From Chiloscyllium plagiosum (Eukaryota), in NCBI RefSeq assembly GCF_004010195.1, contig NC_057719.1, forward strand, positions 13,750,731-13,812,588: a stretch of 61,858 nt of DNA, read 5' to 3'. The position numbers were made by a program, and so were the translations under genes. The notes below the pieces were generated by a model, which ran no database searches, was not told the origin of the DNA, and saw only the letters and a program-made list of their open reading frames with translations. Shown piece by piece: positions 12,907 to 55,518 of the stretch (position 1 is its first letter; each line of letters opens with the position of its first letter).

Positions 12907-13111
12907 TGTCGAGATTGTGGTGCTGGAAAAGCACAGCTGGTCAGGTAGCATCCGAGGAGCAGGAGAGTTGACGCTTCGGACATAAGTCCATAAGAAGAGA
13001 TTATACCTGAAACGTCGACTCTCCTGCTCCTTGGATGCTGCCTGACCTACTGTGCTTTTCCAGCACCACACTCTCGACTCTGATCTCCAGCATCTGCATC
13101 CTCCCTTTATC
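12907..13111. mobile_element. PLE-derived palindromic insertion (family A variant)
   Basis: Inverted arms meeting at a decayed hammerhead; degenerate 16-bp TSD 12891-12906 / 13112-13127 (3 mismatches). Confidence 0.8.
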
Positions 13112-13164
13112 CCAGGAACCTAACTAGACCAACTATATAAATACCATGGCTTTTTACAAAAAGT

Positions 13165-13490
13165 TTTCCTAAGATGCGGGTGTCACTAGCTAAGCCAGCA
13201 TTTATGATCCATCCTAATTGTCTGGGGGTGCAGTTAAGGGTCAATTCGCTGCTTTGGGGCTGGAGTCATATACAGGCCAGACCGAGTTAGCTTGCCTAAA
13301 AGGCATTTGTGATCTCGATGGATTTTTATGTCCATTAATAATGGCTTCATGGTCATCATTACACTCTTCATTCCAGGTTTCTCTTGAATTGAAATTCCAC
13401 AACCTGCTGTGGCAAGATTCAAACCATGGTCCCCAGACCATTACCTGAGTCTCTGGCTCTAGGGATAATAACACTGTGCCATCATCCCCC
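13165..13490 (-). mobile_element. Second tRNA-SINE family copy
   Basis: Reverse complement of the 27585-27930 family. Confidence 0.7.
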
Positions 13491-13869
13491 CCTATACAGC
13501 TTATGAAAGTACATCAGAAATTGTATGGTGTGTGATTCACTTCTTGGCAACCTTTATAACAACATCACATCCTGGGCGTGATGAAATGCCCCCTACTTAC
13601 ATGGATGAGGTGTACAGCTCCAACAACACTCAAGAAACACAATAACATCCAGCCCAAAGTGACCTGCTCGAGTAGCACCCAGTCCATCACCTCCTTCTTA
13701 TTCATTTGTGGGATCTGGGCTTTGCTTGTGAGGCCAATATTTACTTCCCATCTCTAATTGCCTTTGAAAATGTCATTGTGAGCTGCCTTCTTAAATGGTG
13801 AAGCCCTTGTGGTGCAGGTACACCCACAATGCTGTAGACAGGGAGTTCCAGCATTTTGATACAGCGTTG

Positions 13870-14515
13870 AATCAGAGAGTTATACAGCATGGAAAATAGA
13901 CTTTTCAGTCCAACCAATCCGTACCACCCATTTTCCCAAACTAAACTAGTCCTTCCTGTCTGCACTTGGCCCTTCCAAACCTTTCCTATTCATGACCTTA
14001 TCCCAAATGTCTTTTAAACATTGTAACTGCACTCGAATCCACCACTTTCTCTGATAGTTCATTCCACACTCTCTGTGTAAAACAGTTGTCCCTGAAGTCC
14101 TTTTTAAATCTTTCTCCTCTCACCTTAAAAATATGCCCTCTGGTTTTGAACTTGCCCATCCAAGGGAAAAGACCCTAATCATTCACCTTATCCATGCCTT
14201 TCATGATTTTGCAAACTTCAATAAGGTCACCCCTCAACCTCCTACAGACCAGTGAAAAAAATCCCAGTCTTTCCAGTCTATTTTCATATCTCAAACTCTC
14301 CATTCCTGGCAACATCCTGGTAAATCTTTTCTCAACTCCCTCCAGGTTAATAATATCCTTCCTGTAACAGGACGACCAGAACTGCACACACTACTCCAGA
14401 CGAGGTCTGATCAACACCCTGTACAAACTCAACAAGATTTCACAAATCTTATGCTCAAAGGTTTCAGCAATGAAGGCAAGCTTCCTAAATGCTTTCTTAA
14501 TCACCCTGCCTACCT
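13870..14515 (-). mobile_element. CR1 3' fragment
   Basis: ORF 14175-14387 QFWSSCYRKDIINLEGVEKRFTRMLPG. Confidence 0.85.
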
Positions 14516-14517
14516 AT

Positions 14518-15032
14518 GAGCTGAAAATGTGTTGCTGGAAAAGCGCAGCAGGTCAGGCAGCATCCAAGGAACAGGAGAATCGATATTTCGGGCATCAGCC
14601 CTTCTTCAGTATAGGGAAAGTGTGTCCAGCAGATTAGGATAAAAGGTAGGGAGCCAGGACTTGGGGGAGGGGCGTTGGAAATGTGATAGGTGGAGGGAGG
14701 TCAAGGTGAGGGTGACCTCCCTCCACCTATTGCATTTCCAAAGCCCCTCCCCCAAGTCCCTCCTCCCTACCTTTTATCTTAGCCTGCTGGATCACCCTCA
14801 CCTTGACCTCCCTCCACCTATCGCATTTCCAAAGCCCCTCCCCCAAGTCTCTCCTCCCTAACTTTTATCTTAGTCTGCTGGACACACTTTCCTCATTCCT
14901 GAAGAAGGGCTTATGCCCGAAACGTCGATTCTCCTGTTCCTTGGATGCTGCCTGACCTGCTGTGCTTTTCCAGCAACACATTTTCAGCTCTGATCTCCAG
15001 CATCTGCAGCCCTCACTTTCTCTCAAAGATTT
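14518..15032. mobile_element. PLE-derived palindromic insertion (family A) with internal 79-bp duplication
   Basis: Arm 14518-14715 inverted to 14792-14990; 14713-14791 repeated at 14804-14882; ctgcctacc duplicated at 14506-14 and 15033-41. Confidence 0.9.
14899..14926 (+). ncRNA. Minimal type I hammerhead ribozyme core
   Basis: CUGAAGA-A-GGGC-uuau-GCCC-GAAAC-GUC. Confidence 0.75.
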
Positions 15033-15654: not shown

Positions 15655-15748
15655 GGAAGAAGGGTCACAGGATCTGAAAGGTCAACTCTGCTTTCTGTCC
15701 ACAGATGGTGCCAGACCTGCTGAGTTTCTCCAGCAATTTCTGTTTTTA
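15655..15748 (+). mobile_element. PLE terminal fragment (family D)
   Basis: gaagaagggtcacaggatctgaaaggtcaactctg; same family as 43171-43414. Confidence 0.6.
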
Positions 15749-17314: not shown

Positions 17315-17507
17315 ATGGAGATGCCAGTGTTGGCCTGAGGTGTACAAGTTAAAAATCACACAACACCAGGTTATAGTCCAAAGGTTAATTGGAAGCACTA
17401 ACTTTCGGAGCACCGCACAATCACCTGATGAAGGAGCGGCACTCTGAAAGCTAGTGCTTCCAATTAAACCTGTTGGACTATAACCTGGTGTTGTGTGATT
17501 TTTAACT
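17315..17507. mobile_element. PLE-derived palindromic insertion (family E)
   Basis: aaaaatcacacaacaccaggttatagtcc inverted arms; 16-bp TSD 17299-17314 / 17508-17523 (2 mismatches). Confidence 0.85.
17422..17456 (+). ncRNA. Minimal hammerhead ribozyme (family E)
   Basis: CAC-CUGAUGA-A-GGAG..CUCU-GAAAG-CUA-GUG; stem I CAC/GUG and palindromic stem III AGCU. Confidence 0.75.
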
Positions 17508-19080: not shown

Positions 19081-19184
19081 AGCTGAAAATGTGTTGCTGG
19101 AAAAGCGCAGCAGGTCAGGCAGCATCCAGGGAACAGGAGAATCGACGTTTCGGGCATAAGCCCTTCTTCAGGAATGAGGAAAGT
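19081..19184 (-). mobile_element. 104-bp single-arm PLE terminus (family A) with intact hammerhead core at 19144-19171
   Basis: Perfect 13-bp TSD tttcttaaaccag (19068-80, 19185-97). Confidence 0.9.
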
Positions 19185-20525: not shown

Positions 20526-21181
20526 CCCAGTGTTCATTACTGATATACAAAACACTGCATTAGAAATTCCAAACAGTTACAATCTGCCAGGTGAAGAGTT
20601 TCTCTTCATCTTAGTCCTAAATTATTAATTCCTTATCTTATATCTGTGATCCTAGTTCTAGACTTACTAGGTTGAGGCAACAATTTCCCAATGTTTATTC
20701 CAGGAAGACTCTTCAGCATTTTATATATTTTGTAGTTAGACTATCTTTCATTCTTCTAAACTTTAGGAAATATAGAACTGCTCTACACAATACCATCTCG
20801 TAAGAAAATTCTCTTATATCAGTAATTAGTCAGGGAAGATTTGTTGCACTTCCCTCAAAAGCAAGCATATCTTTCCTTATGTAAGGAGACCAAATAATAC
20901 ATCATGTACCATGTGTGATCTGACCAAGAGCACATCTAATTGCAGTCAGATTCCATTACTGTTATATTCTAAGCCCTTTATAGTACACAACAACAGTTTT
21001 CTAATTGCTTGCCGTACCTAAAAGTTAACATTATGATTTAAGTATACCAGGCATCCAGCTCCCTGTGAATGCCAAAATTTTCAGCCTGCTACCAATTAAA
21101 AAATGTTCTGCTTCTTCTTATTATTCTACTGTCAATGACTTTATATTTCTCCACATTCGATTCCATCTGTCCCTTAGTTAT

Positions 21182-23241
21182 CCATAACAGCAGACATGTG
21201 GAGAGTATTTGAGGAACAGTTGTTGCAAGTGATGCACAAATTTGTTCCTCTGAGACAGGCAAGAAGGGGTAAAATTAAGGAACCTTGGATGACGAGAACA
21301 GAGGAGCTTCTCGTCAAAACGAAGAAGGCAGCTTATGTAAGGTGGAGGATGCAAGGATCTAGCACAGCTTTAGAGGATTACAGACTTGCTAGAAAGGAGC
21401 TCAGAATTGGACTGAGGAGAGCCAAGAGGAGGCATGAAAAGGACTTGGCAAGAAGGATTAGGGAGAACCCAAAAGCATTTTACTCAAACATGACGAATAA
21501 GAGAATGATCAGGGAGAAGGTAGGGCTGATCAGAGATAACGGAGGGAACTTGTGCGTGGAGTCGGAGCAGATAGGGGAAGCCCTAAATGAGTTCTTTGCT
21601 TCGGTTTTCACCAAGGAAAGGGAACTTGTTGTAAATGAAAACTTTGAGGAGCTGGGATACAGGCTTGACCAGATCAAGATTGATGAAGTTGATATGCAAG
21701 AAATTTTGGAAAACATTAAGATTGATAAGTCCCCAGGGCCAGAGCAGATTTATCCTAGGCTGCTTCAGAAAGCGAGAAAGGAGCTTGCTAAGCTACTGGT
21801 GAGGATATTTGTCTCCTCGCTCTCCACAGGAGTTGTACCAGAGGATTGGAAGGAGGCGAATGTTGTTCCTCTTTTCAAGAAGGGTAATAGGGAAATCTCA
21901 GACAATTACAGACCAGGCAGTCTTACGTCTGTGATCAAAGTTTTGGAAAGAATTCTGAGGGATAGTATTTATGACTATTTGGCAAAGCATAGTGTGATTA
22001 AAGTCAGCATGGCTTTGTGAGGGGCAGGTCATGCCTCACAAATCTTATTGAGTTATTTGAGGAGGTGTCAAGACAGGTCAACGAAGTTCGAGCAGTGGAT
22101 GTGGTGTATATGGACTTCAGCAAGGCATTTGATAGGGTTCCCCATGGTAGGCTCATTCATAAAGTCAGGAAGTATGGGATACAGGGAGATTTGACTATCT
22201 GGATTCAGAATTGGCTGGCTGACAGAAGGCAGAGAGCAGTTGTAGATGGAAAGTATTCTGCCTGGAGGACAGTGTTGAGTGGGGTCCCGCAGGGCTCTGT
22301 CCTTGGACCTCTGCTCTTTGTAGTTTTTGTAAATGACTTGGATGAAGAGGTTGAGGGGTGGGTTAGTAAATTTGCAGATGACACAAAGGTTGGAGGTGTC
22401 GTCAATAGTATAGAGGGCTATTGCAGGCTGCAGTGCGACATAGACAGGATGCAGAGCTGGGCTGAGAAATGGCAGATGGAGTTCAACCTGGATAAATGCG
22501 AAGTGATGCATTTTGGAAGGTCGAACTCAAATGCTGAATATAGGATTAAAGACAGGATTCTTGGCGGTGTGGAGGAACAGAGGGATCTGGGTGTGCAAGT
22601 ACATAGATCCCTCTAAGTTGCTACCAAGTGGATAGGGTTGTTAAGAAAGCATATGGTGGTTTGGCTTTCATCAATAGGGGGATAGTGTTTAAGAGCCGCG
22701 AGGTTTTGCTGCAGTTCTACAAGTCCCTGGTGAGACCACACTTGGAATATTGTGTCCAGTTCTGGTCGCCCTACTATAGGAAAGATACAGAGGCTTCGGA
22801 GAGGGTACAAAGAAGGTTTACCAGTATGCTGCCTGGACTGGAGGGCATGCCTTATGAAGAAAGGTTGAATAAGCTCGGACCTTTTCTCTCTGGAGAGAAG
22901 GAGGAAGAGAGGAGACCTGATCGAGGTGTACAAAATAATGAGAGGAATAGGTAGAGTCAATAGCCAGAGACTTTTCCCCAGGGCAGGATTGACTGGTACG
23001 AGAAGTCATAGTTTGAAGGTATTTGGAGTAAGGTATGAGGGAGACATCAGAGGTAGGCATTTTACACAGAGAGTTGTGAATGCATGGAATGCGTTGCCAG
23101 CTGTGGTGGTGGAAGCAGAGTCATTGGGGATACTTAAATGACTGCTGGACATGCACATGGATAGCAGTGAGTTGAGGGGTGCGTAGGTTAAGTTACTATA
23201 TTTTTCATGTGCTGTACTTTTCTATGTTCTATGTTCTATAA
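21182..23241 (+). mobile_element. ~2.06-kb 5'-truncated CR1 LINE, relatively young
   Basis: Consecutive ORF2 pieces; (ttctatg)n tail at 23220-23241. Confidence 0.95.
21196..23141 (+). pseudogene. CR1 ORF2 reverse transcriptase, frameshifted (21196-22020, 22017-22616, 22628-22954, 22926-23141)
   Basis: KSPGP, NYRP, DFSKAFD, GVPQGSVLGP, KFADD and WNALP motifs. Confidence 0.95.
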
Positions 23242-23244
23242 TTC

Positions 23245-25075: not shown

Positions 25076-25288
25076 GAAGAAAGTGCGGACTGCAGTTGCT
25101 GGAGATCAGAGTTGAGAATGTGGTGCTGGAAAAACACAGCAGATTAGGCAGCATCCAAAGAGCAGGAGAATCGACGTTTCAAGCATAAGTCTCATTCCTG
25201 ATGAAGAGCTTATGCTCGAAACATCGATTCTCCTGCTCCTCCGATGCTGCCTGACCTGCCGTGCTTTTCCAGCACCACGCTTTCGACT
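25076..25288. mobile_element. PLE-derived palindromic insertion (family A variant); hammerhead core 25198-25225 (+)
   Basis: 15-bp TSD ctga(c/t)tgtgcatctg at 25061-75 / 25289-303; stem II GAGC/GCUC. Confidence 0.85.
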
Positions 25289-26819
25289 CTGATTGTGCAT
25301 CTGAGAAGGAACTCGGAAGCTCAAGCAACATTTCAAAGTCATGCCTGGATATTTCAACTGAAATTTAATGCTAATTGATATAAAATAGTTGGTTGAGCTC
25401 TGTGGTAGATACATAAAAATGAGGAACTAGATTAAGGTGACTGAAATTCATTTCATTGATTCACCTTTCAGCTGTCAAAGAGAAGTATTTATCCTGTCAG
25501 TTTCTGGACTTGATTACAGTGCAGGTCGCAATGGTGAATAGGTGGATTTACAGTGTCAATCCAGCCCTCTTGTAATTATAAACTGTGATGCTTCCAGCTA
25601 AATCCATAAACCCATCATTGCAAATGAGTAACTATCAATGCCTACAATTATCTCCATGTTTACATCATCATTAGTTTCATGCACTGTCCTGAGGGTTTGT
25701 CAGATTGGGTTCATCCTCTAGTGTTTTGTCCCACTTTGACACTTGTGATAAATTATGATTAAAGTCCAATCTTTTAATTAGATAAGCCTTTAGATAAACA
25801 TTAATGAAACTGAAAATCAGCAAAACCTTCATTTGTGCTATAATTTTAATCTCCTCTCTTCTTTTCTTGAAGTCATGGATTTGTGTTTTCTTTTATTTGA
25901 TGAATTTGTCACCTTTGGATATCCGACTAATCCTGACAAGAAACAAGAGGTTTTGTGGTTGGATCAAATTCTGTCCTTCTCTAGTATGCAGAGGCAGGCA
26001 CTCTGGCTTGCTGTTATCCCTTTCCAGCGCCCGTGGAGACAGTGCTGTACAGCACCGAAACAGACCCTTCAGGCAACTCGTCCATGCTGACCAGATATCC
26101 TAAATTAATCTAATCATTCCACCCCCGCTAACTCCAGCGAACTTGCATGAACGTACGCTATTCTGTCACCCTGGCTCAGACCAGCTGTCTCAATATAAAC
26201 CAGAATCAAATCTGTGACTGTCCCTGTGTGTAGATACTAATGTCATAAATACAAGATAAAGTGCTTTTACTGTTATCAATAACATTACTGTTCTATGTGT
26301 CATGACTGCTAACTGCTGTTTTTTATCTTCACCTTTTAATGATGAGTGTTATTTAATTTGGTACTTTGCTAATACTGTTGCTACATGGTATTGTTCAAAC
26401 CTTTGTTTTTGTGCATCTTAGCCTTGTGTTCCAAAATAACATTTTAAGGTTGACTCTTTGCCTGCAAGTGCCATATTTTCAGAAGTCGCTGATTCACAGT
26501 CCTGTTCTCAGGCAGTGTATCTACAAGTCCCATTATGCTGCAACTAAGCTTTGCTGTCCATTGGGAACACAGAATTGATGTCAACAGTCATGTAGCAGTC
26601 TGTCTTCAAGCACATCAGAAGGCAGCAGAGCTGGCATTCATGATCCTCATTCACATGGAGAGGTGACCAGAACCATTTAGATAAACTGAGCTGTGTGTAC
26701 CTTTACTGCGATGTAGATTTCAGACTTCATTAAATACTGTATTCATATTTGGAAACCCAAGCACAATATAAAAACACAGGTTAACATCTTCCTTAGTGAA
26801 TCTTTTTGGGGAAGTCATC

Positions 26820-29090: not shown

Positions 29091-29277
29091 GCTGAAAATG
29101 TGTTGCTGGAAAAGCGCAGCAGGTCAGGCAGCATCCAGGGAACAGGAGANNNNNNNNNNNNNNNNNNNNNNNNNNATTCTCCTGTTCCCTGGATGCTGCC
29201 TGACCTGCTGCGCTTTTCCAGCAACACATTTTCAGCTCTGATCTCCAGCATCTTCAGACCTCACTTTCTCCTCAAAG
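29091..29277. mobile_element. Young PLE-derived palindromic insertion (family A), apex unresolved
   Basis: 60-bp perfect inverted arms around 26 N; perfect 14-bp TSD atgtgtactaagta (29077-90, 29278-91). Confidence 0.9.
29150..29175. other. Assembly gap (26 N)
   Basis: N run. Confidence 1.
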
Positions 29278-31059: not shown

Positions 31060-31310
31060 TGGATTTTGGATTAGTGGTGCTGGAAGAGCACAGCAGTTCA
31101 GGCAGCATCTGAGGAGCAGCAAAATCGACGTTTCGGGCAAAAGCCCTTCATCAGGAATAAAGGCAGAGAGGCTGAAGCGTGGAGAGATAAGCGAGAGGAG
31201 GGTCGGGGTGGGGAGAAAGTAGCATGGGGTACAATAGGTGAGTGGGGGAGGGGATGAAGGTGATAGGTCAGGGAGGAGAGGGTGGCGTGGATAGGTGGAA
31301 AAGGAGCTGG
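31060..31310 (-). mobile_element. PLE terminus (family B) running into the gap; intact hammerhead core 31127-31154
   Basis: Minus strand CUGAUGA-A-GGGC-uuuu-GCCC-GAAAC-GUC. Confidence 0.85.
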
Positions 31311-32015: not shown

Positions 32016-32084
32016 TGCATACTTCTGCGAAAGGACAATGAGCATGAAGACAGCCAATTTGTCGGCCACTTCTTGGTATTTTGT

Positions 32085-32498
32085 TTCACTGTTGTGGTTC
32101 TGTTCGCCGAGCTGGGAATTTGTGTTGCAGACGTCTCGTCCCCTGTCTAGGTGACATCCTCAGTACTTGGGAGCCTCCTGTGAAGCGCTTCTGTGATCTT
32201 TCCTCCAGCATTTATAGTGGTTTGTCTCTGCCGCTTCCGGTTGTCAGTTCCAGCTGTCCGCTGCAGTGGCCGGTATATTGGGTCCAGGTCAATGTGCTTA
32301 TTGATTGAATCTGTCGATGAGTGCCAAGCCTCTAGGAATTCCCTGGCTGTTCTCTGTTTGGCTTGTCCTATAATAGTAGTATTGTCCCAGTCGAACTCAT
32401 GTTGCTGGTCCTCTGCGTGTGTGGATACTAAGGATAGCTGGTCGTGTCATTTCGTGGCTAGTTGGTGTTCATGAATGCAGATCGTTAGCTGTCTTCCA
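32085..32498 (-). mobile_element. 5'-truncated Poseidon-like PLE: GIY-YIG C-terminus plus terminus (family C)
   Basis: Manual translation GRQLTICIHEHQLATK*HDQLSLVSTHAEDQQHEFDWDNTTIIGQAKQRTAREFLEAWHS...INKHIDLDPIY; hammerhead-like CUGAGGA...GAGACGUC at 32130-32163. Confidence 0.85.
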
Positions 32499-32499
32499 G

Positions 32500-33563
32500 T
32501 ACAACACTGTGGGAAGTGTGTGAGATTGTAGGTAGTGTATTAAGATCGATAGAAAATTATTTAGCACCCAGGCAACAAACAGCAGGAATAAATTAGTGAC
32601 ATAGCAATCGGTACTGGGACCCCAGCTATTCACAACATGTGGTAATGATTTAGGCAACTAAATGTAATACCTCAAAATTTGCAAATAACATCAAGCTGGT
32701 AGGAAGGGTTATGAGGAGGTTTGGCAGTGTGATTTGGATAGTGCGAGTAAGTGGGCAAGCACATGGCAGATACAGTATAATGGGAATAAATGTGAGGTTA
32801 TCCATTTTGGTAGCAAAAATAAGGCGGCAGATTATTCCTTGAACAGCTGTAAAGTGAGAGGAAGGGAATATTCAACAAGACCTGGGTGTGCTTGTGCACC
32901 AGTCGCAAGTGCAGCACCTTGTGGTACTGGCAGTAAAGAAGGCAAACAGCCAGATGATTCCAGTATGGGGACAAGGATGTCTTGCTGTAACTATACAAGG
33001 CGTTGGTAAGGCCACACCTGGAATATTGTGTGCAGTTTTCATCTCCTTATCAGATGCTCTTGCTCCAAAGGGTGTGCAGTGACGGTTTATCAGATTGATT
33101 CCTGGGATAGCAGGACTGACGTATGAAGAGGGAATGAGTCGATCAGGATTGTGTTCACTGGAGTTTAGAAGTATGAGGGAGCCTATAAACTAGAAGCCTA
33201 TAAAATTCTACCAGGATCAGACAGGTTCGATTCAGGAAGCATGTTCCAGATGGTGGAGGGTTCCAAGAGCAGGAGTCACCGTTTAAGGATAACGGGTGAA
33301 CCCTTTAGGACTGAGATGAGGAGAAATTTCTTCACCCAGAGAGTGGTGAGCCAGGAGAATTCACTACCACAAGAAGTGGTTTGGGTCAAAACCTGTGTTT
33401 CCATGAAGGCAGTAGATATAGCTGTTGTGGCTAAAGGGATCAAAGGATTTGTGGGGAGGCTGGGGCGAGAGTATTGAGCTTAATGGTCAGGAAAGATCAT
33501 AATGAAAGGTGGAGCAGGCTCTAGCTGAATGGCCTACTCCTGCTTATGTCTTCCATGTTTCTG
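32500..33563 (+). mobile_element. CR1 RT/3' fragment
   Basis: KCEVIHFG and RRNFFTQRVV motifs; CR1 tail. Confidence 0.85.
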
Positions 33564-34172: not shown

Positions 34173-34528
34173 TTAAAAATGTGTTGCTGGAAAAGCGCAG
34201 CAGGTCAGGCCGCATCCAAGGAGCAGGAGAATCGACGTTTCGGGCATAAGCCCTTCTTCAGGAATGAGGAGGGTATGCCCTGAAGCTCTTCAGCCGGCCT
34301 ATCACCTTAACCTCCTTCCACCTATCGCATTCCCAATGCCCCTCCCCCAAGTCCCTCCTCCCTACCTTTTATCTTCGCCTGCTGGGCACACCCTCCTCAT
34401 TCCTGAAGAAGGGCTTATGCCCGAAACGTCGATTCTCCTTCTCCTTTGATGCTGCCTGACCTGCTGCGCTTTTCCAGCAACACATTTTTAAGCTCTGATC
34501 CCCAGCATCTGCAGCCCTCACTTTCTCT
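34173..34528. mobile_element. PLE-derived palindromic insertion (family A) with two intact hammerhead cores (34234-34261 minus, 34403-34430 plus)
   Basis: 15-bp TSD ctgt(g/a)cattctcatc at 34158-72 / 34529-43. Confidence 0.9.
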
Positions 34529-34974
34529 CTGTACATTCTCATCCCTTTTTTCAAATCCCTCCATGGTCTTTCTCCTCCCTATATCTGTTATTCTCTCCAG
34601 CCCCACAGCCCTGTATTTCTGTCACTCTGAACTCCTGTGCAATCCTAATTATAATTTCTTGACCATTGTTGGCAATGTCTTCATTTGCCCAAGCTCCAGA
34701 ATATCTTACCATCATCTATTGAAAGACCCTCTGGAGTATCTGGGTCTTTGATCTGACTTTTGCGCAGCAACTTGTTCCATTCACCCATGGACATGGGCAT
34801 TGCTGGCTGGCCTTCATAAATACTGACCTAATATATCCCTACGTGTCCCCTTTGGTGCTATTAACATAGTGATTGGAATGTGGTCAGCCAGGTGGACCTC
34901 ATAGAATATGAGTTCCCTGACTGGGGCTGTTAACCTGGTCCAATCAGGGAACCCTGGCTGACAGATATAAACAA

Positions 34975-35237
34975 GGTAAAAACAAGGACTGAAGATGCTG
35001 GAAACCAGAGTCTAGATTAGAGTGGTGTTGGAAAAGTACAGCAGGTCAGGCAGCATCCGAGGAGCAGGAAAATCGACGTTTCGGGCAAAGGCCCTTCATC
35101 AGGAATACGGGCAGAGTGCCTGCAGGGTGGAGAGATAAATGAGAGGGGGGTGGGGGTGGGGAGAAAGTAGCATTGAGTACAATAGGTGAATGGGGGTGGG
35201 GATGGAGGTGATAGGTCAGGGAGGAGGGTGGGGGAAG
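34975..35237 (-). mobile_element. PLE terminus (family B); intact hammerhead core 35075-35102
   Basis: Same family as 31060-31310; taaaca on both flanks. Confidence 0.85.
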
Positions 35238-35351: not shown

Positions 35352-35589
35352 CTGGCAAAAGTGAGGACTGCAGATGCTGGAAATCAATGTCTAGATTAGA
35401 GTGGTGCTGGAAAAGCACAGCAGGTCAGGCAGCATCTGAGGAGCAGGCAAATCAATGTTTTGGGCACAAACCCTTCATCCGGAAGGGCTGATCCCGGTAC
35501 TTCGATGTTCCTGATGAAGGGCTTTTGCCTGCTCCTCAGATGCTGCCTAACCTGCTGTGCTTTTCCACCACCACTCTAATCTAGACCCA
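35352..35589. mobile_element. PLE-derived palindromic insertion (family B)
   Basis: Perfect 15-bp TSD cattcagccccttga (35337-51, 35590-604). Confidence 0.9.
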
Positions 35590-36796: not shown

Positions 36797-36920
36797 GGGT
36801 AAAAACAATGGCTGCAGATGCTGGAAACCAGATTCTGGATTAGTGGTGCTGGAAGAGCACAGCAGTTCAGGCAGCATCCGAGGAGTAGCAAAATCAACGT
36901 TTTGGGCAAAAGCCCTTCAG
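36797..36920 (-). mobile_element. PLE terminus (family B), truncated in the hammerhead core
   Basis: Ends ...aaaagcccttca. Confidence 0.8.
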
Positions 36921-40250: not shown

Positions 40251-41605
40251 TTTAGATACAGAGAATGGTTGATTCAAGTCGACTCCAATGTTCTCTGATG
40301 TTGTCCGGGTATTCCAGGGGTATATTTTTAGCAATTCTGGTCTGTAGGAGTTGCAGAGTGAGTGTGTCACCCAGAATCACCATGTTGAATCTTGGTCGAG
40401 TCTGTTTCTTCTGAAATCCCCTTGTTCTGTGTAGTCTGATGGACATTGTGAAATGGATGAGGTGGTGATCAGTCCAGCAGTTCATCTGAGCCAATCGTAG
40501 ACATGGTGACAATCACGTCCTGAAGGAGTGTGCAGCAAACAATGGTGTAATCAATAAGATGTCATTGTTGTTTTGAGCGTGGCTTCCCCTAAGATGCTTT
40601 GAACTTGTTTTTCTGTTAGAAGAATGTATTTATGATGGTGAGGTTATGCTCAGTGCATTTTGTATGAAGAAAGACTCCAGTGGAGTTGATGTTGTCAATA
40701 GCTTCCCTTTCTATGGTGCCATTCCAAAGGTCGTGGCCTTGACCAACCCTGACATTGAAATCTCCATGAAGAATTACCTTATCCTCATTGAGGCTGCTTG
40801 ACAACAGTGTAGTAAGGTTGGCACAGAATGTCTCCTTTATGTCCTCCTCTGCATCAAAGGTTGGGGCATAAGCGCTCACAACTGTAGACATCTTGTTGAT
40901 AGTGAGCATCAGGCGGGTGGTCATGAGTTGGTCATTGAACCCCATAGGAAGTTCAGAGAAGCAACTGATAAGCTGGTTCTTAATTGCGCATCCAACACAG
41001 TGAATTCTGGGCTCATCCGCAGCCTTCCCTTTTCAGAAGAAGGTATAACTATCTTCCATCTCCTTCAGTCGCCCATTGTTTGCAAGGTGGGTTTCGGAAA
41101 GAGCAGCTAGGTTGATCTGGCAACTCTTCAGTTCATTGGCTATGGTCGCAGTTCTTCTCTCAGGTCGGTCACTGTTAGCTGAGTCCTTCAGGGTTCTTAC
41201 ATTCCAGGCTCCAATTATTATTATATAATAATATTATTATTCATTTATTATTCTTTGTTTCTGACCTCATGTGTGCGAACCTCTCAGACGCGGTAACCCT
41301 CTCAGGAGTTGTGAGGCAGGTTATTTTTAGGACCCTTCCCACTGGGGTGAGCAGAGCAGATCGTAAACAGGGCTGCTCAGTGGTGGGTACAGCTGCTGAA
41401 ATGCTCTATCTGCCTCGCCCGGGGCAAGACTGAATCGGACACCCACCACCTAATGTGTCAGCCTGTGACTAGGGGTTCCTAGACATCACAGTCCTTCCCC
41501 CCTCCCTCTTGGGTGGTCGCCTGTGTGTGACGTTTTTTGTCATGGGGAGGCTGATGCACAGACAGCCACCACACCGACCTTGGCAGATGGGGGTCAAAGC
41601 TCAGG

Positions 41606-41726
41606 AGAAAGTGAGGTCTGCAGATGCTGGAGATCAGAGCTGGAAATGTGTTGCTGGAAAAGCGCAGCAGGTCAGGCAGCATCCAGGGAACAGGAGAATC
41701 GACGTTTCGGGCATAAGCCCTTCTCC
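41606..41726 (-). mobile_element. Single-arm PLE terminus with tail (family A), truncated in the hammerhead core
   Basis: Perfect 13-bp TSD gtcaaagctcagg (41593-605, 41727-39). Confidence 0.9.
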
Positions 41727-43155: not shown

Positions 43156-43170
43156 CGGTGTTACATAAAT

Positions 43171-43414
43171 GCAATGCAATAAAACGAGGAACTGCTAGAA
43201 ATCTGAAAAAACAAACAGAAATTCCTGGAGAAACTCAGCAGGTTTGGCAGTATCTGTGGAGAGAAAGCAGCGTTAATGTTTGAGGTCCCGTGACCCTTCT
43301 TCAGAACATTCTGAAGTGTTATGCAAAAGGGTCACTGAACTTGAAACGTTAACTCTGTTTTCACTCCACAGACACTGCCAGGCCTGTCGAGTTTCTCCCC
43401 AATTTCTGATTTTC
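43171..43414. mobile_element. PLE-derived palindromic insertion (family D)
   Basis: Perfect 10-bp TSD ttacataaat (43161-70, 43415-24); minus-strand GUU-CUGAAGA-A-GGGUC..GACCU-cAAACAUU-AAC at 43272-43307. Confidence 0.8.
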
Positions 43415-44302: not shown

Positions 44303-44490
44303 TAAAAAATCACGCAACACCAGGTTATAGTCCAACAGGTTTATTTGGGAGCACTAGCCTTTGAAGCGCTGCTCATTACCTGATGAAATCTAGTACTTCC
44401 AAATAACTCTGTTGGACTATATCCTGGTATTGTGTGATTTTTAATTTTGTCCACCCTAGTCCAACACCAGCTGCTCCACATCATGACATT
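44303..44490. mobile_element. PLE-derived palindromic insertion (family E), hammerhead stem II deleted
   Basis: 9-bp TSD tggctgaag (44294-302, 44491-99); same arms as 17315-17507. Confidence 0.85.
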
Positions 44491-44959: not shown

Positions 44960-45071
44960 GAAGGGCTCCTGCCCGAAACGTCGATTTTCCTGCTCCTTGA
45001 CCTGCTGTGCTTTTCCAGCACCACTCTAATCTTGACTCTGATCTCCAGCATCTGCAGTCCTCACTTTCGCC
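44960..45071 (+). mobile_element. Single-arm PLE terminus starting inside the hammerhead core
   Basis: 10-bp TSD taatggggat (44950-59, 45072-81). Confidence 0.85.
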
Positions 45072-46514: not shown

Positions 46515-46686
46515 TGGAAGTAGGATTGCTTACTGAGCTGGAAGGTTCATTTCCAGACATTTCGCCCAGAGGCCCACAAATGATGTTACCTAGTATGGTG
46601 ACGAAACGTCTGGAAAAAACCTTCTAGCTTAGCGAGCAACATCTAGAACCTCAATCTGAGCTACAAATCTTCTCAAAAGTCACTAA
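46515..46686. mobile_element. PLE-derived palindromic insertion (family C-like)
   Basis: 12-bp TSD gatcctttatac (46503-14, 46687-98); stem II GUUACC/GGUGAC then GAAACGUC, with the CUGA box mutated. Confidence 0.8.
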
Positions 46687-48894: not shown

Positions 48895-50172
48895 AAGGAG
48901 TGCCGGAAGGAGCAGACGTGGTTGTACATTAGATGGGTGAAATTAATGAGCACGAGCATAATTTGGCATTTCATCTGGAAGTAGACTAAATGAAAGTGCA
49001 ACAAATTAACCTCTTGCTGTTGAATTCATAAATGTTCCATTTCCTGCTTTAATCCAATTGGAATTGAAAAAGGCTTTGAAATGAAAGAAAATTCTCAGTA
49101 ATGGTGCAATAACATTGAAATACATCAGTGTTTAAACATAGCTGGACATCAAAAATTAATAAACACAGATATTTCAATACTTCTCTGACAAATATTGATA
49201 CAAAAATGCTTTCTGGAAGTTCTCAAGAGCACTCCCCATCCATGTCAATTGTGGTCATTGAATTCATGTGAATCCATTCTGCAGGAGCTCCCAGCTCTTG
49301 ACTTCTGCTTTTTCAGATAATTTAACTTTTACTCATTTTGCTCTTGCTTTGTTTTGTGGAAGGTGCCTTTATATATTATTCCTTTATTCTGCCCTTTAAG
49401 TGATGACATAGGAGACATTTCCTAACCCCAATCTCAACAGGCTTGTCAACTCTAATTACAGGCAAAAGACGACAAGTAGAAAGCATGAAATTATTAAAAT
49501 GGATGACACAAGGTATGCTTATTTTCTTACAAGACAATCCCATTTGAAGGGTTGTTTTCTGTTCACTACAGATGTTAAACCTTTGTTCCATTATCAGAAA
49601 TGACAAGCAGGCCGATGGAAGTATTGTGAATGGAAACAATCGTAACAATTAGCGAATATATGCAATTGTTCGTTTGCTTTAATTTATTCGATGTTCTTCT
49701 TTCTCTTGTCATTTCTTCTCCAGAGATGGCAGCAAAGTGGTTATGTCATGAAGTTATTAAACTAGGCTAAGGATCAGGTGATGTGAGTTCAAACTGCACC
49801 CGATTGAAAGATCATATGAATTTGATTATCAAATACATCAGCATTACCATTTTGTATCAGTAATGATGACCATGTAACCACTGGATTTGGAGCAGAAAAT
49901 TATCCACTTCTAAAGCAAGTCTGTCTTTAGCTGGTCCAATCTGTATATGGACAGCTTCATCACTGTTCCCTAAATTGGCCAAGTCAACCACTCTATTGTC
50001 AAGAAGGCACCATACCACCACTTCCTCCATCAACAATAAGTGCTGTCTTTCCAAGCAATTCCCAAGCCCATTAATGAATCAATAAAACAATCACTAAATA
50101 TCAATGTTAAAAGGTACCATTGTTGATAAGAGCAGACAAATAGTATGATTGCAGGACAATATCATATTGGTA

Positions 50173-50306
50173 GGCAATATCTGAGGACTGCAGATGCTGG
50201 AAATCAGAGTCTAGATTAGAATGGTGCTGGAAAAGCACAGCCAGTCAGGCAGCATCCAAGGAGCAGAAAAATCGACGTTTCAGGCAAAAGCCCTTCGTCA
50301 GGACTG
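50173..50306 (-). mobile_element. Single-arm PLE terminus (family B)
   Basis: Ends just past a mutated core (cccttcgtcagga); possible degenerate 13-bp TSD. Confidence 0.8.

Positions 50307-50470: not shown

Positions 50471-50512
<42 letters not shown>
50471..50512 (+). repeat. (TCTG)3(TC)15 microsatellite
   Basis: Direct reading. Confidence 0.95.
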
Positions 50513-50514
<2 letters not shown>

Positions 50515-50534
50515 TCTCTAAGACATCTAAACAC

Positions 50535-51036: not shown

Positions 51037-51057
51037 TGATTTTTTTTTATTATGTAG

Positions 51058-51686
51058 ATTCATAGAATCACTACTGTGTGAAAACAGGCCCTTTGGCCCA
51101 GCAAGTCCACATCAACTCTCCAAAGAGTATCCCACCCAGACCCACACCCCCCCTATTGTGGGCGGCATGGCGGCACAGTGGTTAGCACTGCTGCCTCACA
51201 GCACCATGAGACTGGGTTCAATTCCTGTCTTAGGTGACTGTCTGTGTGGAGTTTGCACATTCTCCTCATGTCTGTGTGGGTTTGCTCCAATTTCCTCCCA
51301 CAGTCCAAAAATGTGCAGGTTAGGTGATTTGGCCATGCTAAATTGCCTGTAGTGTTAGGTGTAGGGGAATGGGTGGGTTGCGCTTTGGTGGGTTGGTGTG
51401 GACTTGTTGGGCCTGTTTCCACACTGTGAGTAATCTAACCTATTACTTTACATTTACCCATGACCATTGCACCTAACCTACACATCCCTGAACACTATGA
51501 GTAATTTAGCATGGCCAATTCACCTCACCTGCACATTTTGGACTGTGGGAGGAAACCAGAGCAAACTCACACAGACACAGGGAGAATGTGCAAACTCCAC
51601 ACAGACAGTCACCCGAGACTGGAATCAAACCCGGGTCCCTGGTGCAGTGAGGCAGCAGTGCTAACCAATGATACACCCTGCCACCC
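51058..51686 (-). mobile_element. HE1-type SINE interrupted by an opposite-strand HE1 copy (51160-51438)
   Basis: cctatt duplicated at 51152-57 and 51439-44 around the inner copy. Confidence 0.9.
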
Positions 51687-52889
51687 TAATTCTAATTCTT
51701 TAATCTGTGGAATGAGATGTTAATGTAAATCAACTGGTTGTATAAACAGTGATATATGCAGATTGAACAACCTGAGAAGGAGGATGAGAGAGATGGAGCA
51801 CTTAGTATTTAGGGAGACATGGCTCTAATGAAAACTATAATAATGTATAGAGAGTGAATAAAGAATTGGATTTATTTACTGTGCTATGTTCAGACTGCTG
51901 CTAAAGTAGACCAAGTATGTTTTTTTACCAACCAAAGCAGTGTTAAGGGACAAACCGAGATTGACATAAAATGCAGAGGGTAATGGTCACCTTAATCCAA
52001 AATCGCAAAGAGGTTTTGGTAAGCTAGGGCTTGGTGTCAAATTGTGTTTGGTAACACTTCTGTGAAACATCTTTAGACTTTTCACTATGTTAAAGGCATT
52101 ATAGAACTGCAGATTTTTATTGTTATGAACTACATTTATCCAATTGCAGGATGAATCATAAAGGTTTTCAATTCCTAGAACAAGTCACATTAAAACAAAT
52201 GTGTAACTAACTAGTGAAAATGCTTCTACTGTACTGCCTTAACTTTCTAGAGGACAATGGTTCCAGTAAGTTACATGGACAACTCTGGAAAATGAAGAAC
52301 CAAAATGGAAAGTGCTGGAAAATGGGTTTGGAATAGTTAGGCGGTTGTTTTTGACTGGTGTAAACGCGATGGGCCAAAAGGCATTATTCAGTGCCATAGA
52401 CCGTAATGAATCTGTGACTCTGTGGACTCATGACTGGCAAAAGGAACTTCATACCCCAAAGTGTCACCACAAAAGTGGCTCATGGGAATGGACCTCAGCA
52501 CAACCATTTATAGTTCCTTCACTAATTATATTCCCTCTGCACAGAGGTTTCATTCACAATCCTTTTTAATAATAAAGCAACTCATTCCAGCCAGCGTCAG
52601 GACTGGGATAACATTCAGGTTTGTGCTGACAAACAGCAGGTAATATTAATGGTACACAGGCACACAGTAATGACCACCTTAAACAAAAGAAAGTCTAATC
52701 ATCTCCCTTGAGCTTTTAAAAGACCACCATCATTGCGCACGCCTCACCACCAACTTGAGGTTCACCGTTGAAATTAGTCTGAATTGGTCTAATGCATCAT
52801 CATTCTGGCTGCAGGAATAGGGCAGTGAATGGGAATCAAACCCTCTTGTCCATCACTCATTCAGATAGCTTTTGCAAGGTGAATGAGGA

Positions 52890-53195
52890 AGTGTGGTGTT
52901 AGTGGTAATGTCACTGGAGTAGTAGTCCAGAAACCTGGATTAATGCCAAGGGTTATGGGTTCAAATCCTGCCATGGCAGATACAATTTGAATTGAGTGAT
53001 ATTCCAGCCCAATGGTAACCATTACTGTAAAAGCCCATCCTGCTTTGCTAATTCCCTTTAGGGAAGGAAATCTGCCATCTTTACCTGACCTGTGACTCCA
53101 AACCCACAGCAATGTGGCCACCTCTTGGTTAATTAGGTGTGGGCAATAAATATTGGCCTCCTTATTGATATGCTCATGCAATGAACAAATTATAA
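52890..53195 (+). mobile_element. Second tRNA-SINE family copy
   Basis: gggttcaaatcc B-box; matches 27585-27930. Confidence 0.75.
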
Positions 53196-53249
53196 CAAAG
53201 GAATGCACATTGTTCTTCATCATGGTGTACTCTCCATCTGATAAGATGT

Positions 53250-54940
53250 GCTACCACCATTCTGTTTCTTTGTTAAGATCAACGCGGTCTGCTTGTTTTA
53301 GTGGGAAGCCACTTGCTAGTCTAATGATAAAAAGGCTTGACTTCTCTGAAAGAACATGTGGCTTTCTTCATGGAAGTCAACTATATACAAGTTACATTGC
53401 TGTAATAGACATTTTTGCATTGAGCAATAGGAAGTCTCAGGTGCTGAGTACTGCTCCTTTGAGACCTTTAGCTGGTCCCCGACACAATGTCTTTATGACA
53501 TCACATTATGGGTGATACTTAAAAAACTCCTCGGCATTAAAACTTTCAGTCCCCACACCTCAAAGAGCTCTTTTTCTCCCATTGTGAATATTTGAACATT
53601 TGTGTGTAATTATCTCCGATCCTCTACCCCCATGGCTCTGTCTTCACACATTCATTTGGTCTGGAATTTACATTAATCACCTACAATGTATTCTTTTCAA
53701 ACATGGAAGATTTGTAGATTTCTGAGTTGTTAACCTTGACTCTGTTCTTTGTGAGGGCTGTAAGATCCATTAAAACAGAGGACCTGTTACCCCTGGGGGC
53801 TGTCTCCCAGGAAGGACGTAAATCCTGCTGGGAACAAGTGGATGCTCCATTGTAATGTCTGGAGGATACTGAGTAACTTGCTTTGCGGAGAATACCTGCT
53901 CTGTTGAAGCAAGCACTTTTCTTCTTGCAGAACCCTGCATTTCCAGACCAGTACAGTGGATGTCCCAAAGAGGCAATTTGTTCTTCATTGCCTCTTGTGT
54001 CTGTGGACATTTGTCCTCCTGTCTCAGCATTGGTTTCCAGGGTATCCATACAGCACAACTTCAATCTGTGCCAGCAAATTGCTGTTTGGTAGCTGTCAGT
54101 ATATCTGTGCTGAAATATCTAAACTCTTCTCTCGTTACCTTAACTTGGATGCTTTCATTTGCTTTTGTCAATTGTAGCATTGGTGAACCCAAAATGTTCA
54201 TTTCTTCAGTCAGACAGGTCTACTTTTCATGGCCAATGTCACTGGTATTGAGGATTCTTCTTGGGAGGATAAAGTAATAACATTTTCTGCATAAACTTGT
54301 GGCTCCTTGATGTCTAATATCAGATTTAAATCTGTTATGTTTGAACTGTATGTTCACCAAGCCACGTTGTACCCTGATTCAACCAATTAAAGGTTTGTCA
54401 GTTAACTCCAGTGGATATACAGCTTATTGGCTACCTGATTGCTTGAGTTGTCCTGCAAGCTGTGCTGATTTTTGCAAACAGACTCACTTTAGTGTTGCCA
54501 GCAGTGGAAAAATGTTTTTGCCAGTCCAGCATATTTCCATCTTGCTGATAGTATGATATAAATTCCTTCTGCCGCTGCAGCTAATCTCCATGTATTCTGT
54601 GTTTTGTTGGGATCTTCCATGAATCTCATGAGCCCTGTGAAATCTTCTGCCTGTTCTTCTTGCTCCACAGTATTGACAATACCTGGCATTTGTCTTACTC
54701 ACTGCACCATTTTCTAATGTGAGTCTTTAGGCTTTGTTTATCATAAGAACTAAATGGATTCTGCTGATCTCTTGTGATAAGGCTGACCCTCTCCTTTTAG
54801 GTTTGATGTGTCCTACTTCTGGACTTCTACTTCATTAACCATCTAAATAGCTTTTTCCAAAGTCAAATCTTCCTTAGGCTGTGATAAATCTGACAACGTT
54901 TCATCTGCAATTCCAACAGCAATTCTGTTTTCACGAAAAA
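53250..54940 (-). mobile_element. Highly decayed Ty3/Gypsy-like internal remnant (gag, RNase H end, integrase)
   Basis: RENRIAVGIADETLSDLSQPKEDLTLEKAI (54846-54935), CQYCG, LELTDKPLIG, frameshifted GLE/KCR and EHPLVPS...DLCFNG. Confidence 0.6.
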
Positions 54941-55374
54941 AGAAGAAGGGTCTGAAGGAAAGGTCACTGCCAACTGAACCGTCATGCTAACCTTAAAATA
55001 ACCCTGAATGAGGACTTTGTGCTGCAGAATTTCTGAAGCCTTGGCTCTTTTAAAAAATAGTTAATGCCTCTATTCTTCCTATCAAAATGCTTATCTCATA
55101 CTTTCACACATTGTATTCCATCTGCTGTGTCTTTGCCCATTATCCTGACCTATCTAAGTTCTTCTGCAGCCTCCCACATCCTCATAACAACCTGGCCCTC
55201 CACCTATCTTGGTGTGATCTGCAAATTTAGCAACAATGCCCCCAGTTCTTTTATCCAGACCGATAATGTATAATGTTACAGTCCCAACACAGAGCCCTAC
55301 AAACTCCACTAGTCACCATTTACCACCAGAAAAATAACCTCTTTTATTCCTACTTGCTGCCTTCTGTCAGTATG

Positions 55375-55518
55375 GAAATGTGTTGCTGGAAAAGCGCAGC
55401 AGGTCAGGCAGCATCTAGGGAACAGGAGAATCGACGTTTCGGGCATTAGCCCTTCTGCGCTTTTCCAGCAACACATTTCCATCTCTGATCTCCAGCATCT
55501 GCAGACCTCACTTTCTCC
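55375..55518. mobile_element. 144-bp PLE-derived palindromic insertion (family A)
   Basis: Perfect 16-bp TSD gccttctgtcagtatg (55359-74, 55519-34). Confidence 0.9.

What the first reader, a model, noticed from the sequence alone, without database searches (positions are those of the whole stretch)
12907..55518. Eleven short fold-back insertions, each with a hammerhead-bearing PLE end, a one-sided tail and a long TSD
Seen: palindromic insertions of about 144-515 bp at 12907, 14518, 17315, 25076, 29091, 34173, 35352, 43171, 44303, 46515 and 55375, each with a 9-16 bp TSD. In family A one arm repeatedly starts at (ga)gctgaaaatg while the other carries an extra ~35-45 nt tail (tgatctccagcatctgcagacctcactttctcc). 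Families C, D and E, with different sequences, show the same asymmetry. Established: Penelope-like elements produce inverted pseudo-LTRs with a short tail and carry minimal hammerheads. Inference: in this genome the tiny ribozyme-centred hairpin is a dominant PLE product (about one per 6 kb). It may be an abortive two-primed integration product or a non-autonomous, retrozyme/MITE-like mobile unit. This is the best candidate for an under-described system here.
Basis: partly seen in the sequence, partly recalled or inferred. Interest (0 to 1): 0.7.

Follow-up and report, generated by a model that had tools for sequence, protein, structure and literature searches.

The report
Head-to-head Penelope retroelement stumps in shark
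The eleven short hairpin-shaped insertions are real, but they are most likely one-off stumps left when a Penelope-like jumping gene copies its end into both cut DNA strands at once, a pattern already described for this class, and not a new self-spreading mini-element.

Summary
All 11 fold-back insertions are real: 144-518 bp, 9-16 bp target duplications (9 exact, 2 decayed), exactly one tailed arm each. 'Each with a hammerhead' is overstated: 4 of 11 keep both core boxes. They are 3' ends of Penelope-like elements (PLEs) joined head to head. A relative of family E lies in the window behind a GIY-YIG-type coding piece 90% identical to a bamboo-shark PLE protein; no parent was found for A-D. The self-propagating hairpin reading is not supported: all 10 readable apexes differ, TSD-flanked single arms occur too, and reads laid on the family A arm showed no high-copy apex. 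Inverted pLTR plus a 30-40 bp tail is published PLE anatomy, and this scan found the pattern before on other pieces of this genome. Best model: both nicks of a staggered cut prime reverse transcription at the two known internal start sites, and the two cDNAs are end-joined. What is left over: 23 of 31 arms stop 12-48 nt upstream of the hammerhead cut site, many at an initiator-like site. They may be run-off copies of the RNA's 5' end; this is untested.

The parts
12907..13111 (.). Old family A' head-to-head pair; tail on the right arm; decayed 16-bp TSD (12891-12906 / 13112-13127, 3 mismatches); hammerhead core decayed
14515..15032 (.). Family A pair; both arms end at the same 5' base (-135); 76-nt sense piece between them, joined through a TCA/TGA microhomology; 9-bp TSD (14506 / 15033); core boxes intact on both arms
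14895..14926 (+). Minimal type I hammerhead motif of family A: CUGAAGA at 14899, 4-bp stem II, GAAA, palindromic ACGU, predicted cut after 14926. The A at 14895 lies in an initiator-like TCATTCC and is the main 5' end of arms
   Evidence: the initiator consensus is recalled, from no call
14991..15032 (+). One-sided tail of family A: the sequence between the two inferred reverse-transcription start sites
   Evidence: PMC11167929 for the two start sites
17315..17507 (.). Family C pair inside a host LINE RT region; tail on the left; 16-bp TSD with 2 mismatches; core intact on the right arm (17425)
19081..19184 (-). Family A single arm WITHOUT tail, exact 13-bp TSD, intact hammerhead motif: a tail-less end can form an insertion alone
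25076..25293 (.). Family A' pair; tail on the left; the tail-less arm reaches further 5' (-35 against -17); exact 10-bp TSD; arms differ at 10 of 57 sites
29091..29277 (.). Very young family A pair (arms 0 of 56 differences), 14-bp TSD; apex is a 26-N assembly gap (29150-29175)
31062..31310 (-). Family B tail-less arm running into a 705-N gap; partner unknown
32016..32503 (-). 5'-truncated Poseidon-type PLE: C-terminal endonuclease-region coding piece 32147-32503 (one internal stop), 105/117 identical to P0001 (RT-bearing), followed by a family-E-like hammerhead motif at 32163
34173..34533 (.). Family A pair; hammerhead motif intact on both arms; short palindromic filler at the apex; 10-bp TSD
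34981..35234 (-). Family B tailed single arm, 8-bp TSD
35352..35589 (.). Family B pair; tail on the left; both arms end at -31; about 21 nt of filler that starts with a 5-nt snap-back copy; 15-bp TSD in a host repeat
36798..36919 (-). Family B tailed single arm, no TSD found
41606..41726 (-). Family A tailed single arm, exact 13-bp TSD
43171..43414 (.). Family D pair; tail on the left; 10-bp TSD; decayed hammerhead
44303..44490 (.). Family C pair; tail on the right; stem II deleted in the right arm; 9-bp TSD in a host repeat
44960..45071 (+). Family B-like tailed single arm, exact 10-bp TSD
46515..46686 (.). Family E pair; tail on the right; 12-bp TSD; right arm 42 of 58 columns identical to the end of the Poseidon-type piece at 32101-32158
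50170..50306 (-). Family B tailed single arm, 10-bp TSD with 1 mismatch
55375..55518 (.). Young family A pair, exact 16-bp TSD; the tailed arm is only about 65 nt and starts downstream of the cut site; hammerhead cut short on the other arm; 2-nt microhomology at the apex
55785..56149 (-). Longest family A' single arm (365 bp), tailed, 12-bp TSD in a host repeat; its 5' end may hold the last 26 codons of the parent ORF (unconfirmed)
   Evidence: no parent found
61640..61858 (-). Family A tail-less arm running off the window end

Best explanation
These are dead-on-arrival insertion products of several endonuclease-bearing Penelope-like retroelement families in a carpet-shark genome. The PLE protein makes a staggered cut with 9-16 nt 3' overhangs (inferred from the TSD geometry). 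Each exposed 3' end primes reverse transcription on the element's end region: one at the far start site (cDNA with tail), one at the near start site about 35 nt inside (cDNA without tail). Both cDNAs usually stop early, mostly at or just 5' of the hammerhead motif, and their 3' ends are joined by microhomology, short snap-back synthesis or filler. The result is a head-to-head pair with one tail, a new apex each time, and a TSD. If only one nick primes, a single arm with TSD results. Shown: anatomy, TSDs, unique apexes, single arms, PLE kinship for family E. From literature: two start sites and extension of both strands. Inferred: that the two primings are coupled in one complex, and how the apex is joined.
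For: 11 of 11 hairpins carry exactly one tail (p = 0.0005 if each arm chose at random with even odds). Tail length matches the published 30-40 bp tail (PMC8557442), which in vitro is the stretch between two RT start sites; the same protein cuts and extends both strands (PMC11167929). A tail-less single arm with an exact 13-bp TSD (19081) and five tailed single arms with TSDs show that either end can start an insertion. All 10 readable apexes differ and show microhomology or filler. The tail-less arm reaches further 5' than the tailed arm in 3 of 10 (17315, 25076, 55375), less far in 4, and equally far in 3: no fixed polarity, as two primings predict. The partner arm ranks first or second (ties included) among 22 other arms in 6 of 7 A/B hairpins. 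In public runs the arm ends pile up at the same two 3' positions and no high-depth apex was listed. Family E resembles the end of a Poseidon-type piece whose product is 90% identical to P0001, an RT-bearing protein.
Against: No RT-plus-endonuclease parent was found for families A, B, C or D (for A; C and D were not searched). Their PLE status rests on motif, tail and architecture. Pfam GIY-YIG scored only E = 0.027 on one of four homologues and nothing on the window piece. The final sequence cannot separate two primings from fold-back copying followed by trimming, and later deletion at a palindrome could explain the 3 cases with a longer tail-less arm. Snap-back filler at 14518, 34173 and 35352 shows that some self-priming happens. 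The two arms of 25076 are not nearest neighbours (10 of 57 differences, ranks 11 and 14). The joint table is a weak negative: 15 of 94 rows shown, counting incomplete, and contigs break at palindromes. No whole genome was available.
Confidence: 0.68

Rival explanations
1. Fold-back (self-priming) model: one nick primes a cDNA from the tail end; the cDNA 3' end snaps back on itself and is copied, and the copy stops or is cut at the tail border, giving the tail-less arm. Still a one-off PLE product.
For: Snap-back fillers at 14518 (TCA/TGA plus 76 nt), 34173 and 35352. Partner arms are near-identical in young copies (0-3 differences in 30-57 sites). Self-priming was proposed for PLE palindromic junctions in PMC3846280 (there on an antisense template), and endonuclease resolution for the tail in PMC8557442.
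Against: In 3 of 10 hairpins the tail-less arm holds sequence that the tailed arm lacks (57 nt more in the young 55375 copy). A tail-less single arm with an exact TSD exists (19081). In vitro the near site is a true RT start (PMC11167929).
Confidence: 0.2
2. The hairpin itself is a non-autonomous mobile unit (retrozyme- or MITE-like), transcribed and re-inserted as a whole by PLE protein in trans.
For: High density (11 in 62 kb). Similar apex positions recur near the hammerhead (12907 and 25076 both have one arm ending at -17). A few strand-switch joints occur in all three DNA runs. pLTRs can mobilise other sequence in trans (PMC3846280).
Against: 10 of 10 readable apexes are unique and sizes run from 144 to 518 bp. 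The best-supported strand-switch joints had depth 3-115 against summed depth near 10^7 at the same places, and no RNA reads. Hammerheads are head to head, not tandem, are intact in only 4 of 11, and are buried in the stem when folded. The ends are asymmetric and the TSD is long and variable, unlike MITEs (recalled definition).
Confidence: 0.07
3. The pairs arise from two separate insertions at one site, or from later recombination or assembly artefacts between nearby inverted PLE ends.
For: PLE ends are very dense here. One apex is an N gap (29091), and 25076 has divergent arms.
Against: One TSD pair brackets each whole pair, with no second TSD at the apex. Empty sites are restored by removing the whole pair at 4 of 4 testable loci. 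The one-tail rule holds in 11 of 11.
Confidence: 0.05

Closest known systems
Canonical endonuclease-positive PLE insertion with inverted pLTR, optional 30-40 bp tail and TSD (Arkhipova et al. 2013, PMC3846280, passages read; Craig et al. 2021, PMC8557442, passages read; Schostak et al. 2008, PMC2377424, introduction and passages read)
   Same: Head-to-head inverted 5'-truncated copy, tail on one end only, 8-10 bp TSDs, palindromes at the inverted junction.
   Different: Here both copies are cut down to about 65-240 nt, so no coding region is left. TSDs reach 16 bp, and the form is very frequent.
Poseidon from Anolis (PAc), in vitro mechanism (Frangieh et al. 2024, PMC11167929; main text read, supplement 1 gave only figure letters, supplements 2-4 not read)
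   Same: Two adjacent internal RT start sites that bound the tail; both target strands cut and extended; uncleaved hammerhead RNA is the template (arms here run through the predicted cut site).
   Different: The main text does not describe hairpin products or a stop point at the hammerhead's 5' edge (its one use of 'inverted' concerns a primer block). PAc's ORF starts inside the hammerhead; no such start is shown here.
Minimal hammerheads of metazoan PLEs (Cervera and De la Pena 2014, PMC4209133; results and discussion read)
   Same: CUGANGA, extra base before stem II, G-C closing pair in A-D, palindromic ACGU/AGCU in place of helix III, short helix I. The paper notes pairs on opposite strands 100-700 bp apart in Schistosoma and many solo motifs from truncated PLEs.
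   Different: Sharks are not named in the parts read. Stem II here is 4 bp in A/B, shorter than the 7-8 bp of the Schistosoma motifs.
Animal non-LTR retrozymes (Li et al. 2026, bioRxiv 10.64898/2026.07.22.740005; first fifth and passages read)
   Same: Short, non-coding, hammerhead-bearing, derived from PLE pLTRs.
   Different: Retrozymes are head-to-tail tandems with at least two same-strand hammerheads; these are head-to-head pairs with at most one sense hammerhead per strand.
L1 twin priming (recalled, no call; a search for 'Penelope' plus 'twin priming' gave 3 papers, seen as listings only, none about PLE hairpins by title or abstract start)
   Same: Both nicks of the target prime cDNA; the two cDNAs are joined by microhomology; a TSD flanks the product.
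   Different: In L1 the two cDNAs copy different parts of one RNA and give an inversion. Here both copy the same stretch and give a palindrome with a 30-45 nt offset.

Membership tests
Endonuclease-positive Penelope-like element insertion | Parent ORF with PLE-type RT and C-terminal GIY-YIG endonuclease ending in this terminal sequence (family E) | tested here: met
   32147-32503(-) is 105/117 identical to P0001 (RVT_1 E=3e-6; YIGQTGR motif; homologue P0006 GIY-YIG E=0.027) and ends in an E-like hammerhead end, 72% identical over 58 columns to the 46515 arm. It is a sister subfamily, not the direct parent.
Endonuclease-positive Penelope-like element insertion | Parent ORF (families A, B, C, D) | tested here: inconclusive
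   Three searches with family A pieces found no RT-bearing parent: none, one low-complexity bacterial hit, one shark gene model sharing 26 residues with the repeat's translation. Queries were 40-60 aa with at most 26 possibly coding residues. B, C and D have no coding piece in the window.
Endonuclease-positive Penelope-like element insertion | Inverted 5'-truncated copy, head to head | tested here: met
   11 of 11
Endonuclease-positive Penelope-like element insertion | 30-40 bp tail at one end only | tested here: met
   About 29-48 nt, one arm only, 11 of 11; two 3' end positions in public reads
Endonuclease-positive Penelope-like element insertion | Target site duplication | tested here: met
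   9-16 bp; chance 15 of 20,000; empty site restored at 4 of 4 testable hairpins
Minimal type I hammerhead of PLEs | CUGANGA / stem II / GAAA / NUH with palindromic helix III | tested here: met
   14 family-linked cores in the window (a 15th match at 58149 is not in a PLE arm; the 32163 copy has GAGA for GAAA). Stem II sequence differs between families but stays pairable, including G-C to A-U in A'. Intact in only 4 of 11 hairpins.
Minimal type I hammerhead of PLEs | Match to a curated hammerhead model; stable monomer fold | tested here: not met
   No Rfam hammerhead match at E<=1; z-scores -0.84 to +0.73 for six motifs. Expected for minimal motifs without helix III, so weak evidence either way.
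Minimal type I hammerhead of PLEs | Self-cleavage | not testable with these tools
   No pile-up of molecule ends was listed in one polyA RNA run; that library is not suited to the test.
Non-LTR retrozyme | Head-to-tail tandem with two or more intact same-strand hammerheads | tested here: not met
   All pairs are head to head; in the folded transcript the motif is paired to its antisense copy.
Non-LTR retrozyme | Circular RNA | not testable with these tools
   Only a polyA single-cell run was laid.
MITE / amplified fold-back unit | Many copies of uniform size and identical interior, symmetric terminal repeats, fixed short TSD (definition recalled) | tested here: not met
   144-518 bp, 10 of 10 apexes unique, asymmetric ends, TSD 9-16 bp; no high-depth apex listed (incomplete counting).

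The most novel reading that the evidence does not exclude
The short arms are not random truncations but run-off ('strong-stop'-like) cDNAs. PLE transcription starts at an initiator at the 5' edge of the hammerhead; the protein dimer binds the first 130 nt of its own RNA and primes at both internal start sites on ONE RNA molecule, one from each target nick; both polymerases run off the capped 5' end. This would explain in one stroke the one-tail rule, the arms that end at the same base (14518, 35352, 43171), the pile-up of 5' ends at 14894-14896 (often after an extra G, as a cap would template), and the huge number of solo pLTR stumps. The 130-nt arm would then carry both start site and RT-binding site and could itself spread like a SINE.
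Probability: 0.25. Interest if true: 0.55.

Novelty: new member of a known kind. Interest (0 to 1): 0.3.

Why it matters
As a class, little: this is published PLE anatomy in extreme truncation, and repeat annotators should file these hairpins as PLE ends, not as MITEs, microRNA precursors or retrozymes. The value is as a data set. How PLEs make inverted repeats and the one-sided tail is named as an open question in PMC8557442, and this genome seems to hold a very large number of minimal two-ended products. The strict one-tail rule and the stop point at the hammerhead edge give countable predictions for telling twin priming from fold-back, and for finding the transcript's 5' end.

Tried and rejected
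Whole-genome tabulation: no genome held. Search for more copies in metagenome and viral contigs with a 28-base family A pattern: 0 and 0. Rfam scan: only sub-threshold microRNA-type and one lncRNA match, driven by the hairpins, no hammerhead; a microRNA reading is rejected. Parent search for family A: nothing useful; P0009 is a low-complexity bacterial match. Pfam on the window's endonuclease piece alone: 0 families. Run search listed no RNA holder; this is no evidence on expression. In RNA run X21, 94% of laid reads ran on into other sequence and about 60% were on one strand; I take this as read-through from host transcripts and draw nothing from it. Hammerhead cleavage as the cause of the 5' ends: rejected, because arms run about 30 nt past the predicted cut site. 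Memoryless truncation: rejected, 23 arms end at -48 to -12 and 0 in the equally wide nearer window -11 to +25; the window was chosen after seeing the data, so the p-value printed there is too optimistic. Literature searches (Penelope/hammerhead/pseudo-LTR; Penelope-like/shark/inverted; Penelope/twin priming; Penelope-like/palindrom/non-autonomous/pLTR; Penelope/Chiloscyllium) listed no paper on shark PLE hairpins. The library lacks most subscription papers and Repbase, so this does not show that it is unpublished. Supplementary Fig. S2 of PMC11167929 (genomic coverage of PAc ends) could not be seen and may already show a 5' pile-up.

Full report
1. Observation. The 11 insertions are present at the stated coordinates, 144-518 bp long. 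Each folds far better than shuffled sequence (z -4.4 to -43). Nine have exact TSDs of 9-16 bp; 12907 matches at 13 of 16 and 17315 at 14 of 16. An exact repeat of 9 bp or more at such positions turned up in 15 of 20,000 random intervals. I removed insert plus one TSD copy at 17 loci (11 hairpins, 6 single arms) and compared the joined flanks with the window. Five had a paralogous host repeat across the junction (17315, 35352, 44303, 55375, 55785), and in each the host sequence ran on with at most a small gap; the other 12 had no paralogue. One arm only carries an extra 29-48 nt in 11 of 11. Both arms point with their 3' ends outward.

2. Both hammerhead core boxes survive in 4 of 11 hairpins. 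The young copy at 55375 appears to have been born without a complete one. Rfam finds no hammerhead and the motifs do not fold better than shuffles, as expected for minimal motifs that lack helix III (PMC4209133, results and discussion read). The motif call rests on the core boxes, a stem II that differs between five families but stays pairable, and a palindromic ACGU or AGCU before the cut site. The same ends also occur as single arms: 19081 (no tail, exact 13-bp TSD), 34981, 41606, 44960, 50170 and 55785 (tail and TSD), 36800 (tail, no TSD found), and two family D arms at 15651 and 40126 without TSD. For A/B that is 7 hairpins, 7 single arms and 2 loci cut by a gap or the window end.

3. Are they PLE ends? 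For family E, yes by kinship. At 32147-32503 (minus strand) lies a coding piece with one internal stop, 105 of 117 residues identical to P0001, a Chiloscyllium punctatum protein with an RT domain and a YIGQTGR motif. All 8 homologues listed were from carpet sharks, so the window is probably from a bamboo shark or close kin (inference). The piece ends in a hammerhead-like motif and a stretch 42 of 58 columns identical to the right arm of 46515. Pfam's GIY-YIG model scores weakly (E = 0.027 on 1 of 4 homologues). For family A three searches found no parent; B, C and D offer no coding piece. Their assignment rests on motif, tail, TSD and architecture, which match the published description: an inverted 5'-truncated copy, a 30-40 bp tail at one end only, and 8-10 bp TSDs (PMC3846280, PMC8557442, passages read).

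4. Is the hairpin itself mobile? In the window all 10 readable apexes differ (29091 has a 26-N gap there). They show 2-3 nt microhomology (55375, 14518), snap-back or palindromic filler (14518, 34173, 35352) or short filler (46515). No genome was held, so I laid four public runs on the family A arm 14792-15031: two DNA runs of the best-matching organism, one of a relative, and one RNA run (115,710, 99,216 and 102,845 contigs and 3,630 reads laid). Of the 15 best-supported joints shown (79 more hidden), 10 switch strand. Each stands in 1-4 contigs per run at depth 3-115, where summed depth at those places is of order 10^6-10^7, and none has RNA reads. This is a modest negative: the tool said counting was incomplete in the DNA runs, and contigs break at palindromes. 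Structure also argues against a retrozyme: the hammerheads face each other, and in the folded 34173 transcript the motif is paired to its antisense copy. Retrozymes are defined as tandems with two or more complete motifs (bioRxiv 10.64898/2026.07.22.740005, first fifth and passages read).

5. Mechanism. A TSD outside two outward-facing 3' ends needs a staggered cut with 3' overhangs, each end joined to the start of a cDNA (inference from geometry). The Anolis Poseidon protein cuts and extends both strands, starts at two adjacent internal sites that bound the tail, and uses uncleaved RNA (PMC11167929, main text read). The simplest reading is twin priming, one nick at each site. Three facts fit. 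First, one tail in 11 of 11 (p = 0.0005 at even odds), while single arms come both with a tail (6 of 7 in A/B) and without (1 of 7). Second, either arm can be the longer at the apex: tail-less in 3, tailed in 4, equal in 3. Third, partner arms are of the same subfamily in 6 of 7 A/B hairpins; 25076 is the exception. The rival is fold-back of a single cDNA. Snap-back fillers show that it happens locally, but it cannot supply the 57 extra bases of the tail-less arm at 55375 unless a later deletion is assumed. I put twin priming at 0.68, fold-back at 0.20, a mobile hairpin at 0.07 and secondary origin at 0.05.

6. The unexplained part. Of 31 arms whose 5' end I placed (partly by eye; both arms of 29091 left out; two counted as 'long' though cut off; the two family D single arms uncertain for lack of a long reference), 23 end 12-48 nt upstream of the predicted cut site, 0 end in the equally wide nearer window, 1 ends earlier and 7 run further. 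For A/B alone it is 13 of 21. The window was chosen after seeing the data. Public reads agree: raw-read depth rises from about 220 at 14880-14887 to 960 at 14896-14903 and 2,590 at 14944-14951, halves to about 1,310 in the tail and falls to 14 after 15023. The 5' loose ends among the 24 rows shown (of 1,026) lie mainly at 14894-14896. Part of this step may come from subfamilies that diverge upstream of 14895, but the loose letters in the DNA runs are long, AT-rich and without consensus (agreement about 0.31), as unique flanks would be. Position 14895 is the A of TCATTCC, which fits the initiator consensus (recalled). The consensus letter before it is G in the three DNA runs (T in the RNA run), and the short fillers listed before 14895-14896 end in G in 5 of 5 rows shown. 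The runs share insertions and are not independent, and a C at that place would be hidden as a match, so this is a lead only. A transcription start at the hammerhead edge, with cDNAs running off a capped end, would explain it; so would an RT stall at a folded or protein-bound hammerhead. In Drosophila virilis the start lies 46 nt before an intron whose end abuts the hammerhead (PMC2377424, passages; PMC4209133), which does not match a start at the edge.

7. Novelty. The anatomy is known, and opposite-strand minimal hammerhead pairs 100-700 bp apart were noted in Schistosoma (PMC4209133). Five searches listed no paper on such hairpins in sharks, but the library is partial. This scan reported the same pattern on other pieces of this genome, with the same verdict; these notes are not independent evidence, and I had stated my reading before seeing them. 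Verdict: real, PLE-derived, most likely one-off integration stumps; new member of a known kind; interest 0.3, resting on the one-tail rule and the 5' stop point as handles on an open mechanism.

Noticed in passing
window 31062-32503: A family B tail-less arm, a 705-N gap, then the 3' part of a Poseidon-type PLE in the same orientation: two PLE families adjacent or nested; the gap may hide the apex and second arm.
   Followed up: partly
window 14855-14875 (+), and matching places in 55785, 34981, 31062: A pyrimidine tract ending in AG lies about 42-53 nt before the hammerhead cut site in long A and B copies; it looks like a splice acceptor, as for the pLTR intron of Drosophila Penelope. Altered in 34173 and 61640; not tested.
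   Followed up: no
lay of 14792-15031, joints 14980 to 14895 and 14984 to 14898: 'Goes back' joints of 86-87 nt in all three DNA runs at low depth (12-86): possibly head-to-tail tandems of the unit from hammerhead edge to tail-less end, which would be closer to a retrozyme than the hairpins are; letters between are not known.
   Followed up: no
lay of 14792-15031, joints 14973/15022 and 14986/15024: Strand-switch joints between two 3' ends: possible tail-to-tail arrangements, for example one copy inserted into the end of another.
   Followed up: no
window 14515-15032: Both arms end at the identical base (-135), with a 76-nt sense duplication between them: a template jump or snap-back caught in one insertion.
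   Followed up: partly
window 51160-51686: The longest inverted pair in the window (151 nt, 83%) belongs to another abundant repeat family (about 14 copies), not to the PLE ends; not analysed.
   Followed up: no
window 21178-22954 (+), 7775-8746 (-), 40616-41032 (-): Decayed LINE pieces: RT domains (RVT_1 E=8e-26 and 4e-15, the second with an ALKBH8_N-like end) and an endonuclease fragment. About 34% of the window is repeated within itself.
   Followed up: partly
proteins P0002, P0007, P0010: Shark gene models (5'-nucleotidase domain, MAP3K7, PH/SEC7-like) carry translated PLE pieces: exonisation or annotation artefacts.
   Followed up: no
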